Shown here piece after piece: positions 1,827 to 23,764 of a stretch of DNA of 24,000 nt (position 1 is the stretch's first letter; every line of letters begins with the position of its first letter). The notes under the pieces were generated by a model that was given only the letters and a program-made list of their open reading frames with translations, was not told the origin of the DNA and searched no databases. Made by a program: the position numbers and the translations under genes. Source of the stretch: Hafnia alvei (GTDB lineage: Bacteria > Pseudomonadota > Gammaproteobacteria > Enterobacterales > Enterobacteriaceae); assembly GCF_034424155.1 (NCBI RefSeq), contig NZ_CP139992.1:674012-698011 (forward strand), given 5' to 3'.

Positions 1827-3302
1827 TCAGGCAGTAACGGATAATGATGAAACGGCAGAACGCATACCGTGCTGTTCAATTTGCTGTAAGTATCCGGTGA
1901 TGGTTTGGGTCATTTCAGGGATCTGGTTAAGATCTTGTCCCCAGTGGTCGGCCTCGCTCAGGATTTTTTGCACGAAGCTTTCCAGACTTTCACCGCCTGC
2001 TTTTACTGCGCTCCAGCCAGAGTGATAACGCTCGAGCCAATGCGCATCATCTTGCAATGGATAGGTTTCGCCATCGCGCTCGCCACGGTAGAACGCGATC
2101 AACGCGGCAAGTGCAAAGCATAAACGCTGGGGCAGTGTGCCCGTTTGCTGCTGGTAAGCCAGCACCTGAGGCAGAATACGGGTGCGGTATTTCGTCATAC
2201 CGTTTAACGCAATGGATAACAACTGATGCTGAATGAACGGGTTACGGAAACGGCTTAGCACTGCGTCAGCAAATGATTTCAGTTCATTGGCAGGCAGATC
2301 GAGCACCGGTACGATCTCTTGGCTAATCGCTTTCTCGACGAACTCGGTTATCTGAGCGTCGTTCATGCTTTCGCCCACGGTGTTAAGTCCGGCTAAGAAT
2401 GCCACTGGAACCAATGCGGTGTGAGCGCCGTTCAGGATTGCTACTTTGCGCTCTTTATAGGGCTTGATGTCATCCACGATGCGAATGTTTAGCGGTTTAT
2501 GATCCTTGGCAAAGGCATCTAAACGAAGCTCTTGAGCCAGCGACTGTGGGCCTTGGATGACAAACAGATAAAAGTGCTCTGCGGTATCTAAAAATGCGTC
2601 TTGATAGCCCAGCTCTTTCGTCAATGCTTCGACTTCGTCGCGCGGATATCCGGTCACGATGCGGTCTACCAACGTTGAGCAGAACGTGTTGCTTTGCTCT
2701 AACCACTGAATGAATGCTGACGGTAAATCCCACTGCTGAGCGTAGCGCAACACCAGTTCGCGCAGCGCTTCACCGTTGTAGTCGATTAACTCGCATGGCA
2801 GCAATACCCAACCTTTATCGGCTGCGCCGTCGAAATGGCAAAAACGCTCGTACAGTAAGCGTGTCAGCTTGGCTGGGAAGCTGGCTGGTGGGGTATCGGT
2901 CAGCTTATCTTCGGCGACATAGCTGATGCCTGCTTCGGTGGTGTTCGAAAACACAAAGCGGATGTTGGCATCATGCGCCAGTGCCAAATAAGCATCAAAG
3001 TCCTGATACATATTGATTTCGCGGTTCACGCTGCGAATAATGCGAGACTCACGAACGGCTTCGCCTTGTTCGTTTAAACCACGAATAATGGTGGTAAACA
3101 AACCGTCCTGTGTGCTGAGTGACGGCGGGAAATCGCTGTTTAGTGGGCGAACAACCACCACGCCCGCATTCAAATCGGTATGCTCATTCAGCAGATCCAA
3201 CTGCCAGTCTACAAACGCACGTAGGAAATTGCCTTCACCAAACTGAATCACTTTGTCTGGGTGCTGGCGGCCGGGAAAATCACGACGATTAAGAGTTTGC
3301 AT
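1827..3302 (-). CDS. uxaB: Tagaturonate reductase (altronate oxidoreductase)
   Basis: The 491-aa ORF starts [27 protein letters not shown] and contains [15 protein letters not shown], matching my recollection of E. coli UxaB. Its stop lies 13 nt upstream of the uxaA start. Confidence 0.95.
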
Positions 3303-10072: not shown

Positions 10073-10474
10073 GTGACTCTGCTACTTATTCAGCGGCTTG
10101 GATGGAAGCGTGCTTTACTGCTTTTTGTATTGATCGTCGCTGCATTTGCATGGTGGGTTGTGCCACATTTGGTGCACAAAGAAACCACGCTGCAAATCAG
10201 CGCGACGCAGTCTGGTTTAGCGACGCCCGATGGTTTTTTTGTCTATCAGAAACTCGATGAGCACGGCATCAGCATTAAAAGCATCACGCCAGATGGAAAC
10301 GGCTTGTTGGTTCATTTAGCTAAGCCTGAACAGCAGGATGAGGCAATGCACGTGTTGCAGACGGTGCTGCCGCGTGGCTATAGCATTGCGTCTAAAACGC
10401 ATCGGCGCACGCTATTCCAGTCAGCCGAAAGTGACGTCAAGGATCCTCCCAGGCAACCGAGACTTAGCAGCTAA
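10073..10474 (+). CDS. mzrA: Modulator of EnvZ/OmpR (MzrA/YqjB family)
   Basis: The GTG start lies 1 nt after the yqjA stop. The protein has an N-terminal TM segment. The segment ATPDGFFVYQKLDEHGISIKSITP parallels the E. coli MzrA segment [24 protein letters not shown]. Synteny with yqjA is conserved. Confidence 0.85.
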   Translation: MTLLLIQRLGWKRALLLFVLIVAAFAWWVVPHLVHKETTLQISATQSGLATPDGFFVYQKLDEHGISIKSITPDGNGLLVHLAKPEQQDEAMHVLQTVLPRGYSIASKTHRRTLFQSAESDVKDPPRQPRLSS

Positions 10475-10479
10475 ACATT

Positions 10480-10513
10480 AAAAACAGAGCCTTATGGCTC
10501 TGTTTTTGTTTTT
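10480..10513 (+). terminator. Intrinsic terminator after mzrA
   Basis: The sequence is aaaaACAGAGCCttatGGCTCTGTttttgttttt: a perfect 8-bp stem, a 4-nt loop and a long T-tract. Confidence 0.85.
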
Positions 10514-10736
10514 AAGGATTGTCTGATTTTTCGATTATCGGCTCCCATTTTTGACTGCAAAGCACCTATTATTTAATGATAGTGATAAGTAATCGTTAAT
10601 AATTGCAGGTTATAGTTATAACGGTCGGGCGCACTCCAGTGACGAGGTTATGCGTATCGAACCCTAGGCTTGTTTCGATGATACAAAGACATATGTCCCC
10701 GGAGTGGGGCACTTTTAAACTCAATAAGGACTTTTC

Positions 10737-13110: not shown

Positions 13111-14091
13111 ATGGGACAACTCGTTGACGGTATCTGGCAAGATATCTGGTATGACACCAAATCTACCGGTGGACGTTTTAAGCGTTCAAACGCGCAATTC
13201 CGTAACTGGGTCACTTCTGATGGATCTGCTGGCCCAAATAATGAACCGGGATTTAAGGCAGAAAAAGATCGCTACCATCTTTATGTCTCTTTGGCCTGTC
13301 CGTGGGCACATCGCACGTTGTTAGTCCGCAAGCTTAAGGGGCTGGAAACGCTGATACCTGTTTCCGTGGTCAGCCCGCTGATGCTGGAAAATGGTTGGAC
13401 GTTTGAGCGCTCCTTCGCTGCCGCGACCGGTGACGAACTCTATCACCATGATTTTCTCTACCAGCTCTATCTACAGGCCGACCCGCACTATACCGGACGC
13501 GTCACTGTCCCTGTACTGTGGGATAAACAAACTCAAACCATCGTCAGCAATGAATCTTCAGATATCATTCGTATGTTTAATACGGCGTTTGATGATTTGG
13601 GCGCAAAGCCGGGTGATTTTTATCCGTCGGAATTGCGTGCTGAGATTGATGAGCTCAATAGTTGGGTTTATGACACCGTTAATAATGGCGTCTATAAAGC
13701 AGGGTTTGCGACGTCGCAAGAGGCCTATGATGAAGCCGTTAGCGCGGTATTTGCCTCATTAGATAAGCTGGAAAACATTCTTGCCCGTCAGCGTTACTTA
13801 ACCGGTGAGCGTTTAACCGAGGCCGATCTTCGTTTGTGGACGACGTTAGTGCGTTTTGACCCAGTATACGTGACGCATTTTAAATGCGATTGGCAGCGGA
13901 TCAGTGACTATCCGAATCTGTATGGATTCCTGCGTGATATCTATCAGATGCCGGGTATTAAAGAGACGGTCAATTTGGAACACATCCGTAATCATTATTA
14001 TCGCAGCCATAAAACCATCAACCCAACGGGCATTATTTCGATCGGGCCAAGGCAAGATCTTGATGCTCCGCACGGCCGCGATAAGCGTTAA
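13111..14091 (+). CDS. yqjG: Glutathionyl-hydroquinone reductase (Xi-class GST)
   Basis: The 326-aa ORF contains MGQLVDGIWQDIWYDTKSTGG, YHLYVSLACPWAHRTL (the CPWA active site) and FDPVYVTHFKCD. It is near-identical to E. coli YqjG. An AGGAGG Shine-Dalgarno lies upstream. Confidence 0.95.
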   Translation: MGQLVDGIWQDIWYDTKSTGGRFKRSNAQFRNWVTSDGSAGPNNEPGFKAEKDRYHLYVSLACPWAHRTLLVRKLKGLETLIPVSVVSPLMLENGWTFERSFAAATGDELYHHDFLYQLYLQADPHYTGRVTVPVLWDKQTQTIVSNESSDIIRMFNTAFDDLGAKPGDFYPSELRAEIDELNSWVYDTVNNGVYKAGFATSQEAYDEAVSAVFASLDKLENILARQRYLTGERLTEADLRLWTTLVRFDPVYVTHFKCDWQRISDYPNLYGFLRDIYQMPGIKETVNLEHIRNHYYRSHKTINPTGIISIGPRQDLDAPHGRDKR

Positions 14092-14337
14092 AAAAAGCCC
14101 TGCAAAAGCAGTAACACCTTTCACTTAAGTGTGATTTTAGGGGAAGTACACCGATGGGGTCGTAGCAGCTTTAGCTGCCGACAACTTTGCTTGGAGCAAA
14201 GTTGAACAACGCTTTAGCGTTGGCCCTCTGGGAGGAACACAGGGATGTGTTCCTTAACCGCCCCGCGGTGTGCTAGCCCCGTGTATCTCGATCTCTTAAA
14301 CGAACGGCGTTATGCACAAGCAGGGCTTTTTGATTTC
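14092..14337 (+). repeat. Structured intergenic element 'copy B': outer inverted repeat plus a closed four-hairpin core (14140-14280) carrying GGA loops; candidate CsrA-binding RNA module
   Basis: The outer inverted repeat is aaaaagccctgc (14093-14104) and gcagggcttttt (14319-14330). A closing helix of about 16-18 bp pairs 14140-14162 with 14258-14280. Four hairpins sit inside it: 14165-14178, 14182-14204 (loop UUGGA), 14207-14222, and 14234-14253 (ggaACACAGGGAUGUguucc). Function is unknown. Confidence 0.6.
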
Positions 14338-15201
14338 TCATAAATACAGCGCAGGGCGGATAATTTGCTTTACGCCACGCTGGGCAAGCGCGGTGGCAAG
14401 CGTTTCAATATCTTCTTTTGTGGCACTTTGCCATGCTTGTGCATCACCGCGAACACCATGATGATGAAAGGCGTTGAGGCGTACAGGAATATCACCGAGC
14501 GTGGTAATAAACTGCGCTAATTCATCAACATGCTGCAGGTGATCGCTATGCTGTGGGATCACCAGCAGGCGCAGCTCGCTGAGCTTGTCATGTTTTGCCA
14601 ACCACTGAATGCTTTGTTTGACCCTTTGATTATCTCGCCCCGTCAATGCTATGTGGCATTCGCTGCCCCACGCTTTAAGATCAATCATGGCACCGTCCAT
14701 CCATGGTGCGATTTTCTCCCAGCCAGTCGTGGATAATTCACCGTTACTGTCGATTAGGCAGGTTAAATGCTTGAGCACTGGCGTGGATTTAATCGCGGTG
14801 AAGAAGTCACATAAAAACGGCAGTTGCAGCGTTGCCTCACCGCCGCTAACCGTGATGCCATTGATAAACAGCGCATTGCGTTTTACCTGTGCCAAAAGAG
14901 AATCTACGCTGTAGCGCTGCACCATTGGGCTGGATTGGCGTGTGCAGGTTTGCAGGCAGGTATCGCATTGCTGACAGGCTTTCTCATCCCAACGCACACG
15001 CCCATCTTCCAGACGTAATGCCTGATGAGGGCAGGTCTCTACACAGTCGCCGCAGTGGTCACAAAGACCAATCGTGTAAGGATTGTGGCAATTCTTACAG
15101 TTTAGATTGCACCCTTGCAGAAAAATGGCCAAGCGACTGCCTGGCCCATCGACGCAGGAGAATGGTAAGATCTTACTTACCGAAGCGCATCGATTGCTCA
15201 T
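14338..15201 (-). CDS. yjjW: Glycyl-radical enzyme activase, YjjW family (radical SAM)
   Basis: The 287-aa ORF carries a CxxxCxxC radical-SAM motif (CNLNCKNC) and two ferredoxin-like Cys clusters ([12 protein letters not shown] and [12 protein letters not shown]). The length and the ending (FPALYL-type, here RPALYL) match my recollection of E. coli YjjW. The start overlaps the yjjI 3' end by 29 nt. Confidence 0.9.
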
Positions 15202-22357: not shown

Positions 22358-23764
22358 TTACTTAGACCCAATCTTACGTAGTGGTTTGCCCTGCATCAGA
22401 TTACGTTCAATGTGTTCCAGAGAGATATTCTTAGTCTCAGGGATCAGCGCTAACGTAATGAAGATGAAGATAACGTTCAGACCGGCATAGACCCAGAAGG
22501 TATGTGCGCTACCCAGAGAGTTCAGCATGGTCAGGAAGGTTGCCCCGACGATCATGTTGGCAATCCAGTTGGTGGCGGTTGAACAGGTGATACCAAAATC
22601 ACGGCCTTTCAGCGGCTGAATTTCAGAACACAGCACCCAAATCAGTGGACCGGCGCTCATGGCAAAACCGACGATGAAGATTAGCAGCATGATAACGGCA
22701 AAGTACTGAGCAAACACGGAGCTGATACCGATGTTCATCATGGTACCTAAGGTGCCCATACCTAAAGCCATCACGATAAAACCGAGAATCAAGGTTGGCT
22801 TACGACCCCAGCGGTCAACTAAACCGATGGCGATAAAGGTGGCTAATACGTTCACCAGACCCACGATAACCGTGCCCCACATCTGCTGTGAGGTGCTGGC
22901 AAAGCCCGCTAAGTCGAAGATTTTTGGTGCGTAATACATAATGACGTTCATGCCGGTGAACTGCTGCATCACCTGTAACAACACGCCAAGATAAACGGCA
23001 CGGCGGAAGTTTTTATTGTTAATAAACAATGCCCAGCCGCTTTGTTTCACTTTCAGACTTTCACGAATTTCATCCAGTTCACTTTTGGCTTGTTCACTGG
23101 TATCACGCAGTTTTTCTAATACACGGCGGGCTTTTTCATCACTGCCGCGTGCGGCTAACCAGCGTGGGCTATCTGGCAGGAAGAACACACCTATCAATAG
23201 CAGAATAGCTGGAATAGTGATGACACCCAGCATCCAGCGCCATGCGCCGGTGTAGCTGAAAGCGGTGTCAGAAAGATAAGCGGCCAAAATACCGATGGTG
23301 ATCATCAACTGGTACATTGAAATCATACTGCCGCGAATCTTTTCTGGTGCAATTTCAGAAAGATAAATCGGAGCCGTATAAGATGCGATACCTACCGCTA
23401 ATCCCAGCAGTACGCGAGAAAGGATCAGAATTTCAACATCAGGTGCGAAGGCAGAAAACAGGGAGCCAACCACAAACAGGATTGCGCCAATCATCAAGCT
23501 GTATTTACGGCCAATGCGGAAGTTCAACCAGCCGCTACCCACTGCGCCGACTGCCGCACCAAACATCATAGAGCTCACAACCCATTCTTGTTGAGAGCTG
23601 GTGATTTGAAACGTCTCGCTGATAAATGGCAAAGCACCAGCGATAACACCAATATCCAGCCCGAACAGTAAGCCTGCCAGCGCAGCTAAAAAGCAGACAA
23701 AGAACGTTAGACTGGCATTTGAACGGGTCTTGCGAACCGATTGTGTACTCACGGTAGTACTCAT
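22358..23764 (-). CDS. galP: Galactose:H+ symporter (MFS sugar porter)
   Basis: The 468-aa ORF contains [29 protein letters not shown] and PESPRW-type motifs (LPDSPRW), and ends [20 protein letters not shown]. It is collinear and highly similar to my recollection of E. coli GalP. Confidence 0.93.

What the first reader, a model, noticed from the sequence alone, without database searches (positions are those of the whole stretch)
14092..14337. A compact, closed four-hairpin domain with CsrA-type GGA loops, nested in the loop of the yqjG/yjjW bidirectional terminator
The 246-bp gap between convergent yqjG and yjjW is bounded by aaaaaGCCCTGC (14093-14104) and GCAGGGCttttt (14319-14330). This is a terminator-like stem with U-tracts on both strands whose loop is about 210 nt. 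Inside, 14140-14280 folds into a closed domain. An interrupted closing helix of about 16-18 bp (GGGG/CCCC, GUACACCG/CGGUGUGC, GGGGU/GCCCC) encloses four clean hairpins. These are GCAGC-uuua-GCUGC, CAACUUUGC-uugga-GCAAAGUUG, CAACGC-uuua-GCGUUG and GGAACAC-agggau-GUGUUCC. The last hairpin reads ACACAGGGAUGU, which matches 11/12 positions of the SELEX-derived CsrA ligand consensus RUACARGGAUGU with GGA in the loop. The second hairpin also exposes GGA, about 48 nt away, a distance a CsrA dimer can bridge. Two closing-helix pairs are G-U on the plus strand (T14147-G14272 and T14160-G14260) and would be A-C mismatches on the minus strand. This argues for an RNA read in the yqjG direction, either a 3' UTR or a 3'-UTR-derived sRNA. 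I know of no described element with this architecture.
Basis: partly seen in the sequence, partly recalled or inferred. Interest (0 to 1): 0.7.

Follow-up and report, generated by a model that had tools for sequence, protein, structure and literature searches.

The report
Mobile mini-transposon inside a terminator
The four-hairpin "domain" between yqjG and yjjW of Hafnia alvei is real and its fold is conserved, but it is one copy of a small non-coding transposon (a MITE) that jumped into the genes' shared terminator, not an RNA gene special to this locus.

Summary
The fold is real: MFE -113.9 kcal/mol, z -8.6. It is not locus-specific. Window 14112-14312 is a 201-bp MITE. Its terminal inverted repeats are of the IS4 type. 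It is flanked by an 11-bp target-site duplication, TGCAAAAGCAG / TGCACAAGCAG, which splits an older bidirectional terminator, AAAAAGCCCTGC-aaaa-GCAGGGCTTTTT.

More than 100 related copies were recovered from enterobacterial contigs, in short (126 bp) and long (201 bp) forms. Other H. alvei and Obesumbacterium strains carry the short form at this same site, without hairpins 2-4. A Hafnia lineage whose YqjG is 91% identical has either an empty site or an independent insertion in the opposite orientation with a perfect 11-bp duplication.

Hairpins 2-4 form a separate 75-nt module. The same module sits inside long ERIC elements (E. coli, Yersinia) and inside repeats with YPAL-type ends.

Compensatory changes support the stems. 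The plus strand folds better in 83 of 86 copies. GGA is kept in the loops of hairpins 2 and 4 in 29 of 31 copies.

Against an RNA gene: the element has no promoter of its own, and its orientation relative to neighbouring genes is unbiased.

CsrA binding remains an untested idea.

The parts
13111..14091 (+). yqjG (glutathionyl-hydroquinone reductase), the upstream convergent gene
   Evidence: ORF. The exact protein is named YqjG / GST family of Hafnia alvei.
14090..14103 (.). Left half of the pre-insertion bidirectional terminator: A-tract plus stem GCCCTGC
   Evidence: It pairs with 14320-14326 in the MFE fold.
14101..14111 (.). Left copy of the 11-bp target-site duplication, TGCAAAAGCAG
   Evidence: In Obesumbacterium proteus both copies are identical (TGCAAAAGCAG).
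14112..14312 (+). 201-bp MITE, long form of subfamily A
   Evidence: Boundaries come from the drop in conservation across 55 A-type copies and from the flanking duplications.
14112..14131 (+). Left terminal inverted repeat, TAACACCTTTCACTTAAGTG (family consensus TAATGCYGGTCACTTAAGCG)
   Evidence: The family consensus matches both ends of E. coli IS4 within 3 mismatches.
14293..14312 (-). Right terminal inverted repeat (reverse complement TAACGCCGTTCGTTTAAGAG)
14140..14164 (+). 5' side of the interrupted closing helix, plus the invariant GGGGTCGTAGC box (14156-14166)
14165..14178 (+). Hairpin 1, GCAGC-uuua-GCUGC. It is present in both short and long forms.
   Evidence: One pair covaries (G-C in 21 copies, A-U in 9).
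14180..14259 (+). 75-80-nt module: hairpin 2 (14182-14204), hairpin 3 (14207-14222), CCC/GGG mini-hairpin (14224-14232) and hairpin 4 (14234-14253). The short form has GAGC in its place.
   Evidence: CM hit of 90.1 bits. Present or absent at this very locus. Covariation. The same module sits inside ERIC elements.
14260..14280 (+). 3' side of the closing helix (GCCCC, CGGUGUGC, CCCC)
14313..14323 (.). Right copy of the target-site duplication, TGCACAAGCAG (10 of 11 identical to the left copy)
14320..14331 (.). Right half of the old terminator: stem GCAGGGC plus T-tract
14338..15201 (-). yjjW-like radical-SAM activase gene, convergent, followed by a YjjI-like gene

Best explanation
Window 14112-14312 is a non-autonomous transposon (MITE) of 201 bp. 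It inserted into the bidirectional intrinsic terminator shared by yqjG and yjjW in an ancestor of Hafnia alvei and Obesumbacterium.

Shown:
- Its ends are IS4-type inverted repeats.
- Insertion duplicated 11 bp (TGCAAAAGCAG) at the top of the terminator hairpin. The old stem halves and their A and T tracts therefore now bracket the element.
- The family is dispersed in many copies.
- It targets AAA-N~20-TTT sites, that is terminators, mostly between convergent genes.
- It shows filled, empty and re-filled states at the same intergenic region.
- The element is composite. IS4-type ends enclose a conserved core (closing helix, GGGGTCGTAGC box, hairpin 1). In the long form the core encloses a 75-nt three-hairpin module.
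- That module also occurs inside long ERIC elements and inside elements with YPAL-type ends. It is swapped in and out at orthologous sites.

Inferred:
- It is mobilised in trans by an IS4-subgroup DDE transposase.
- Long and short forms interconvert by gene conversion between dispersed copies.
- Because the element is a long imperfect palindrome, the transcript of either gene can still close the old stem next to its U-tract. Termination is therefore probably kept, and the mRNA gains a bulky, stable 3' structure.
- The conservation of the plus-strand fold and of the GGA loops shows some constraint on a single-stranded form. The most likely agent is a protein that reads the hairpin loops, and its identity is unknown.
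For: Fold.

Family:
- A Serratia copy at 74% identity shows compensatory changes.
- The metagenome scan gave 120 loci, most of them real copies and several per contig.
- Unique full copies number A-short 35, A-long 20, B-short 33 and B-long 10.

Target duplication:
- 26 of 46 A copies have a 9-13-bp flanking direct repeat (mode 11), against about 2% in shuffled-flank controls.
- The target arms are A-rich on the left and T-rich on the right.

IS4 link:
- E. coli K-12 IS4 has ends TAATGCCAGTCAGTTAAGC and TAATGCCGATCAGTTAAGG, a 12-bp duplication, and an AAA-N20-TTT target.
- The A consensus end hits both IS4 ends within 3 mismatches.
- Published IS4-subgroup hallmarks are ends -AATR--------WTW---- and direct repeats of 10-13 bp (PMC2266710).

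Context: 42 of 75 copies lie between convergent genes and only 1 between divergent genes.

Mobility:
- L254 has a 49-bp empty spacer.
- L252 has an independent A-long copy in the opposite orientation with a perfect 11-bp duplication, GGGGGAGTGCG.

Module polymorphism:
- At this locus, the window and L257 are long; L258, L259 and L255 are short.
- Three more orthologous long/short pairs show the same swap.

Module in other carriers.
Against: - No autonomous IS4-like partner with matching ends was found in the 1.08 Mb of fetched sequence. Hafnia genomes could not be scanned whole.
- The window copy's own ends (TAACACC.. and TAACGCC..) depart from the AATR signature at two positions.
- A cut-and-paste DDE mechanism acts on double-stranded ends, so it does not explain the internal strand-specific fold or the conserved GGA loops.
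- No exactly empty version of the window's own terminator was recovered. The original terminator is reconstructed from the duplication.
- Retention of terminator function is inference only. The simple terminator scan finds nothing here, because its loop limit is 8 nt.
Confidence: 0.87

Rival explanations
1. The domain is a functional RNA of this locus: a yqjG 3' UTR element or a 3'-UTR-derived sRNA that binds or sponges CsrA through the GGA loops of hairpins 2 and 4.
For: - The plus strand folds better than the minus strand in 83 of 86 copies.
- G:U cells outnumber A:C cells 89 to 6.
- GGA is kept in the loops of hairpins 2 and 4 in 29 of 31 copies each, while the other loop bases and the loops of hairpins 1 and 3 vary.
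- Hairpin 4 reads C-A(N)GGAU-G in Hafnia, Serratia, Yersinia and E. coli versions whose stems are completely different.
- GGA outnumbers UCC on the plus strand by 2.0 to 0.1 per short A-type copy and 4.4 to 1.1 per long A-type copy.
Against: - The element is not locus-specific. It is a mobile repeat.
- Hairpins 2-4 are absent from other H. alvei strains at this site.
- The whole element is absent from a sister lineage.
- The sister lineage's independent copy faces the other way.
- There is no orientation bias relative to flanking genes, 15 against 12.
- No promoter-like site lies inside the element.
- No Rfam family matches, CsrB, CsrC and Rsm RNAs included.
- Inside the module nearly all stem changes are full Watson-Crick swaps with about 1% G:U. 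That fits a DNA-level or two-strand constraint as well as an RNA one.
- No paper in the library links CsrA to MITEs or ERIC.
Confidence: 0.12
2. The conserved interior (core and/or the 75-nt module) is a single-strand DNA hairpin element. An HUH/Y1 enzyme (IS200/IS605 TnpA or a RAYT) would move it, reading hairpin loops on one strand. The IS4-type ends would be only the outer carrier.
For: - The fold constraint is strand-specific even though insertion orientation is random.
- The invariant GTAG tetranucleotide lies immediately 5' of hairpin 1 (GGGGTCGTAGC), as in GTAG-tagged REPs (PMC3733652).
- The module appears in unrelated carriers (ERIC, IS4-type, YPAL-type, Proteus intergenic DNA) without an obvious duplication and always in one relative orientation.
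Against: - No conserved target tetranucleotide is seen at the module junctions. The 5' flanks end CCG, GAG, ACG, GTG and AAG.
- Long/short swaps at orthologous sites replace the module by GAGC, with extra substitutions clustered just 3' of it. That fits gene conversion better than excision.
- No TnpA or RAYT gene was seen next to any copy, though this was not searched for systematically.
- Hairpins 2 and 4 do not resemble each other as IS200/IS605 left-end and right-end hairpins do.
Confidence: 0.1
3. The structure is incidental. An imperfect palindrome derived from IS ends folds by construction, and the conserved features reflect only recent common ancestry of the copies.
For: - Both strands fold strongly.
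- Many copies are closely related, so counts of cells overstate independent events (note).
Against: - The stems differ completely between carriers while pairing is kept. For hairpins 2-4, 17 of 25 pairs carry double changes and 95.9% of cells pair, against 31-42% in slid controls.
- The GGA loops stay fixed while adjacent loop positions show 4-6 variants.
- The four internal hairpins are not the two arms of one palindrome.
Confidence: 0.05

Closest known systems
IS4 (E. coli) and the IS4 subgroup of the IS4 family, as the likely source of the ends and the mobilising enzyme
   Same: - The terminal repeat consensus TAATGCYGGTCACTTAAGC compares with IS4's TAATGCCAGTCAGTTAAGC and TAATGCCGATCAGTTAAGG.
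- Duplications are 10-13 bp, mode 11 (PMC2266710).
- The target is AAA-N~20-TTT.
   Different: - The element is 126 or 201 bp with no transposase gene.
- Its interior is unrelated to IS4.
- The window copy's ends are a diverged variant (TAACACC and TAACGCC).
- No cognate full-length IS was found in Hafnia.
YPAL / RU-2 and its 130-bp variant YPAL* of Yersinia (De Gregorio et al. 2006; Delihas 2007)
   Same: - Subfamilies B and C carry the same conserved core as the window element, but between YPAL-type ends (TTCAGACTGCTGACAAA ... CTTTGTCA.CAA.CTCA).
- They sit at dyad symmetries with long duplications of 16-25 bp. YPAL duplications are reported as 3-26 bp (PMC2229807).
- A B-short-like consensus is in the published Yersinia repeat library as kristensenii2 (50 copies) and aldovae13 (26 copies).
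- The 168-bp YPAL itself has two C-A(N)GGAU-G hairpins.
   Different: - The window copy has IS4-type ends, not YPAL-type ends, and an 11-bp rather than roughly 20-bp duplication.
- The interior of the 168-bp YPAL is otherwise unrelated.
- The identification of B-short with 'YPAL*' rests on size and copy number in PMC2267715. The original paper is not held.
Long ERIC elements (ERIC with an internal insertion of about 70 bp)
   Same: - The insert is the same 75-nt module as window 14180-14259. It has three hairpins plus the CCC/GGG mini-hairpin, loops nnGGA and A(N)GGAU, and the GAAC junction.
- It was seen in the Y. kristensenii consensus, in metagenome ERICs L167 and L216, and between panC and rpnC in E. 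coli O55:H7.
- 565 of 5426 E. coli genomes have a place covering at least 80% of the long-ERIC query.
   Different: - The carrier is different. ERIC has TATACCC...GGGTATA ends and its own central palindrome.
- The window element has no ERIC sequence outside the module.
- That such ~70-bp insertions at specific internal sites are already described (Wilson and Sharp 2006) is from memory, not from a held paper.
CsrB/CsrC/RsmZ-type CsrA-sequestering sRNAs
   Same: GGA sits in hairpin loops. Hairpin 4 matches the CsrA SELEX hairpin (loop ARGGAU closed by C-G), and a second GGA loop lies about 48 nt away.
   Different: - There are only two loop GGAs.
- It has no promoter of its own.
- No Rfam match was found.
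- It is mobile and polymorphic.
- Binding is untested.

Membership tests
MITE (non-autonomous DDE transposon) | Terminal inverted repeats | tested here: met
   14112-14131 against the reverse complement of 14293-14312 matches at 15 of 20 positions. The ends are conserved across 55 A-type copies.
MITE (non-autonomous DDE transposon) | Flanking target-site duplication | tested here: met
   The window copy has 11 bp at 10 of 11 identity, and the duplication is perfect in O. proteus. Of 46 A copies, 26 have 9-13 bp, against about 2% in controls.
MITE (non-autonomous DDE transposon) | Many dispersed copies, small size, no coding capacity | tested here: met
Sizes are 126 and 201 bp. No ORF of 40 aa or more lies within the element; only ORFs that clip its ends are listed.
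MITE (non-autonomous DDE transposon) | Filled and empty sites in related genomes | tested here: met
   L254 is empty with a 49-bp spacer. L252 holds an independent insertion with a perfect 11-bp duplication.
MITE (non-autonomous DDE transposon) | Cognate autonomous IS with the same ends in the host | not tested
   Only E. coli IS4 could be compared.
IS4 subgroup of the IS4 family (as the source of the ends) | End signature -AATR--------WTW---- (PMC2266710) | tested here: inconclusive
   The family consensus TAATGCCGGTCACTTAAGC fits. The window copy reads TAACACCTTTCACTTAAG: AACA instead of AATR, with WTW kept.
IS4 subgroup of the IS4 family (as the source of the ends) | Direct repeats of 10-13 bp, with specificity in the target arms | tested here: met
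   The mode is 11 bp. An A-tract lies 4-9 nt left of the duplication and a T-tract 4-8 nt right of it. The IS4 copy of K-12 sits in AAA-N20-TTT with a 12-bp duplication.
YPAL / RU-2 | Ends TTCAGACTGCTGACAAA ... CTTTGTCAAYAACCTCA | tested here: not met
   The window copy has IS4-type ends. Subfamilies B and C meet this feature.
ERIC | Ends TATACCC/GGGTATA and the central GAGCTTAC..AAGTAAGTGA palindrome | tested here: not met
   Both are absent from 14092-14337. There was no E. coli match to the whole region. Only the 75-nt insert is shared.
CsrB/Rsm-type CsrA sponge RNA | Match to a curated family model | tested here: not met
   No Rfam hit at the gathering threshold or at E up to 10.
CsrB/Rsm-type CsrA sponge RNA | Own promoter giving a discrete transcript | tested here: not met
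   No sigma-70-like site lies inside the element. Transcript data are not available.
CsrB/Rsm-type CsrA sponge RNA | CsrA binding to GGA hairpins | not testable with these tools
   Only the motif could be checked. GGA is kept in the loops of hairpins 2 and 4 in 29 of 31 copies each.
REP/BIME (RAYT-associated) | GTAG tetranucleotide next to a short GC-rich palindrome | tested here: met
   GTAG is invariant directly 5' of hairpin 1.
REP/BIME (RAYT-associated) | No terminal inverted repeats or target duplication; clustered in alternating orientation | tested here: not met
   The element has inverted repeats and an 11-bp duplication, and it occurs singly.

The most novel reading that the evidence does not exclude
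The 75-nt module (hairpins 2-4) would be a portable protein-binding cassette. It has invariant nnGGA and A(N)GGAU loops, fully covarying stems, and occurs inside ERIC, IS4-type and YPAL-type MITEs from E. coli to Proteus. The likeliest partner is CsrA acting on RNA. MITEs would then spread the cassette into the 3' ends of dozens of unrelated genes. The result would be either a dispersed CsrA sponge or many mRNAs placed under CsrA control.
Probability: 0.12. Interest if true: 0.75.

Novelty: new member of a known kind. Interest (0 to 1): 0.35.

Why it matters
The result turns an apparent orphan structured RNA into a dated, mobile event. Anyone annotating the Hafnia, Serratia or Yersinia 3' UTR "sRNAs" that overlap these repeats should treat them as MITE copies first.

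It also links three repeat families that are usually treated separately: elements with IS4-type ends, elements with YPAL-type ends, and long ERICs. They share a common core or a common 75-nt module.

One concrete question remains open. A hairpin module whose stems have turned over completely keeps the same GGA loops across Enterobacterales, and something must select for that. Natural long, short and empty alleles of the yqjG-yjjW spacer in Hafnia provide a ready-made isogenic series to test it.

Tried and rejected
- The first genome scan used a pattern that was too loose (GGGGTCGTAGCN{7,12}CCGAC). Of the 120 loci, 118 were chance hits in GC-rich genomes. One cause is an MFS-transporter coding motif of the ..DRWGRK.. 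type; the window's own example, at 22801-22820, matched the core box by chance.
- The viral scan gave one chance hit.
- Rfam gave nothing at either threshold.
- The whole 246-nt region has no E. coli match. The module was found in E. coli only when an ERIC-borne version was used as the query.
- An 11-codon mini-ORF starts at the ATG of the hairpin 4 loop (MDVFHNRPAVC in A-long copies). It was rejected because the window copy and others have AGGGAT there and lose the ATG.
- A promoter within the element was not found.
- An autonomous partner was looked for in the fetched loci. None was found; only E. coli IS4 itself and a pair of inverted MITE copies in L213 matched.
- The original YPAL and Yersinia ERIC papers (PMC1636318, PMC1291288) are not held.

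Full report
**1. Observation**

The window comes from Hafnia alvei. The exact YqjG protein is recorded under that name and occurs in H. alvei assemblies.

The ORFs at 13111-14091 (+) and 14338-15201 (-) leave a 246-bp gap. An outer stem, GCCCUGC/GCAGGGC, is flanked by A and U tracts. Inside it lie an interrupted closing helix, four hairpins and a small CCC/GGG hairpin.

The plus strand gives MFE -113.9 kcal/mol and z = -8.6. The minus strand gives -109.7 kcal/mol and z = -8.4. The outer-stem coordinates are one base off, and everything else is as described. No Rfam family matches at any threshold.

**2. It is a repeat**

A copy at 74% identity lies in a Serratia proteamaculans replicon, with compensatory changes in every helix. 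Two more lie in one S. marcescens assembly.

Most of these were real copies, often several per contig.

The copies sort into subfamilies by their ends:

| Subfamily | Left end | Right end |
|---|---|---|
| A (the window's type) | TAATGCYGGTCACTTAAGCG.. | ..CTTAAACGATCAGCATTA |
| B | CAGACTGCTGACAAAGCCCG.. | ..CTTTGTCATCAAACTCA |
| C (found in S. marcescens) | similar to B | similar to B |

Each subfamily has a short form of about 126-131 bp, which carries hairpin 1 only. Each also has a long form of about 200 bp, which adds hairpins 2-4. Unique full copies number A-short 35, A-long 20, B-short 33 and B-long 10.

**3. Transposon features**

The window element spans 14112-14312. It is flanked by TGCAAAAGCAG (14101-14111) and TGCACAAGCAG (14313-14323). 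Removing the element and one repeat restores AAAAAGCCCTGC-aaaa-GCAGGGCTTTTT, an ordinary bidirectional terminator.

- Across the family, 26 of 46 A copies have a 9-13-bp flanking direct repeat (mode 11), against about 2% when flanks of different copies are paired.
- The duplicated bases are the top of a hairpin. A-tracts lie 4-9 nt to the left and T-tracts 4-8 nt to the right.
- Of 75 copies with readable flanks, 42 lie between convergent genes and only one between divergent genes.

**4. Whose ends**

E. coli K-12 IS4 ends in TAATGCCAGTCAGTTAAGC and TAATGCCGATCAGTTAAGG. It is flanked by a 12-bp duplication and sits in AAA-N20-TTT. The A-type consensus end finds both IS4 ends within three mismatches.

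The published hallmarks of the IS4 subgroup fit the family (PMC2266710):
- ends -AATR--------WTW----
- direct repeats of 10-13 bp
- marked specificity in the target arms for some members

The window copy's own ends (TAACACC.. and TAACGCC..) are a diverged variant. No autonomous partner was found in the 1.08 Mb of sequence fetched.

**5. Mobility at this very locus**

Other H. alvei strains and Obesumbacterium proteus carry the short form at the same site. Apart from the module they differ from the window at only a few scattered positions, and the 75-nt module is replaced by GAGC. In O. proteus the two 11-bp repeats are identical.

A lineage whose YqjG is 91% identical is probably H. paralvei, judging by its 328-aa YqjG variant, but this is not certain. 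There, one contig has only a 49-bp spacer with a different terminator hairpin (L254). Another has an independent A-long copy in the opposite orientation, flanked by a perfect 11-bp duplication, GGGGGAGTGCG (L252).

**6. The element is composite**

Three further orthologous pairs differ only by the module-for-GAGC swap. Extra substitutions cluster just 3' of the module, which points to gene conversion between copies.

A covariance model of the module finds it in several other contexts:
- inside ERIC elements (L167 and L216)
- twice in Proteus mirabilis, upstream of Rhs-type fragments
- in the ERIC consensus 'kristensenii1' of the published Yersinia repeat library (PMC2847712 supplement)
- in E. 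coli, in the ERIC between panC and rpnC of O55:H7; 565 of 5426 genomes have a place covering at least 80% of the long-ERIC query

The same Yersinia library holds B-short-like consensuses, kristensenii2 with 50 copies and aldovae13 with 26.

The B ends equal those of YPAL/RU-2 (PMC2759123). YPAL duplications of 3-26 bp at dyad symmetries are on record (PMC2229807). A 130-bp 'YPAL*' with a complex fold is listed for Y. pestis (PMC2267715).

**7.

- *Covariation is strong.* In 31 long copies, 96.5% of cells pair, against 40-45% in slid controls, and 16 pairs change on both sides. For the module across five carrier contexts, 95.9% of cells pair, against 31-42%, and 17 of 25 pairs change on both sides.
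- *The plus strand is favoured.* There are 89 G:U cells at 18 pair positions against 6 A:C cells. The plus strand is 4.8-13.3 kcal/mol more stable on average in all four classes, and in 83 of 86 copies.
- *GGA is kept in the loops.* It is present in hairpins 2 and 4 in 29 of 31 copies each, although the neighbouring loop bases take 4-6 different states and the loops of hairpins 1 and 3 vary freely. The ERIC-borne and Proteus versions, whose stems are entirely different, keep the same loops.

Against an RNA gene:
- No promoter-like site lies inside the element.
- Tandem-gene contexts show 15 sense against 12 antisense copies.
- The module's stems change almost only by full Watson-Crick swaps.
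- The element is dispensable at this locus.
- No paper in the library connects CsrA with MITEs or ERIC.

**8. Verdict**

The finding is a MITE copy, a known kind of element, in a family that seems not to have been named for Hafnia.

Shown: the structure, the repeat family, the duplication, the IS4-type ends, the terminator targeting, the filled, short and empty alleles, and the shared module.

Inferred: mobilisation by an IS4-subgroup transposase, long/short interconversion by gene conversion, and retained termination through the re-closed outer stem.

Unexplained: the strand-specific fold and the invariant GGA loops. CsrA binding is one candidate explanation and a single-strand DNA enzyme is another.

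Noticed in passing
Loci L250, L246, L224, L179, L167, L182 and others (subfamily B): Copies with YPAL-type ends duplicate about 19-21 bp, that is the whole terminator hairpin. AAA lies immediately to the left and TTT immediately to the right. A and B therefore use the same AAA-N~20-TTT target but different staggers, 11 bp against about 20 bp.
   Followed up: partly
L129:1490-1560 (E. coli plasmid NZ_CP107722) against L005:7250-7480 (S. marcescens): The same flanking genes are present in both. The plasmid has only a minimal element of about 70 bp (TGATGACAA...TTGTCAGC). The Serratia site has the whole core plus module, between 5-bp direct repeats GTGAT. The core therefore looks like an insert in a still smaller hairpin element.
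   Followed up: partly
L127:1501-1577 and 2980-3044 (Proteus mirabilis chromosome, filed in PLSDB as a plasmid): The 75-nt module occurs without any MITE carrier. The first copy (1501-1577) lies just upstream of an Rhs-type C-terminal coding fragment (..RYYAPDLGRF..DPWGL). The same flanking sequence recurs upstream of the second copy (2980-3044), where the locus ends before any downstream coding could be read. The record has 4 matching places.
   Followed up: partly
L260:601-798 (E. coli O55:H7 RM12579, panC-rpnC spacer): This is a long ERIC carrying the module, with hairpins CAAATTCGT/ACGAATTTG, CCAGCC/GGCTGG and GAGAGAC/GTCTCTC and loops CAGGA and ATGGAT. A place covering at least 80% of the long-ERIC query exists in 565 of 5426 complete E. 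coli genomes.
   Followed up: partly
L213:3971 and 7118: Two B-short copies lie in inverted orientation 3.1 kb apart. This is the arrangement of a possible composite transposon.
   Followed up: no
L001:2497-2879 and 2990-3150 (Serratia proteamaculans NZ_MT039221): A B-long copy sits just downstream of a tRNA-Val x3 / tRNA-Lys operon and its terminator, on a 276-kb 'plasmid' that also carries gltX.
   Followed up: no
window 22801-22820: A 20-nt stretch, 85% complementary to the core box, lies inside a 468-aa transporter ORF and encodes [10 protein letters not shown]. It is a chance resemblance. Coding motifs of this type probably account for many of the false hits of the first genome scan.
   Followed up: yes
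window 10471-10516: A 21-nt inverted repeat with a 4-nt spacer, CTAAACATTAAAAACAGAGCC / GGCTCTGTTTTTGTTTTTAAG, looks like an ordinary bidirectional terminator. It would be a potential empty target of the kind this MITE uses.
   Followed up: no
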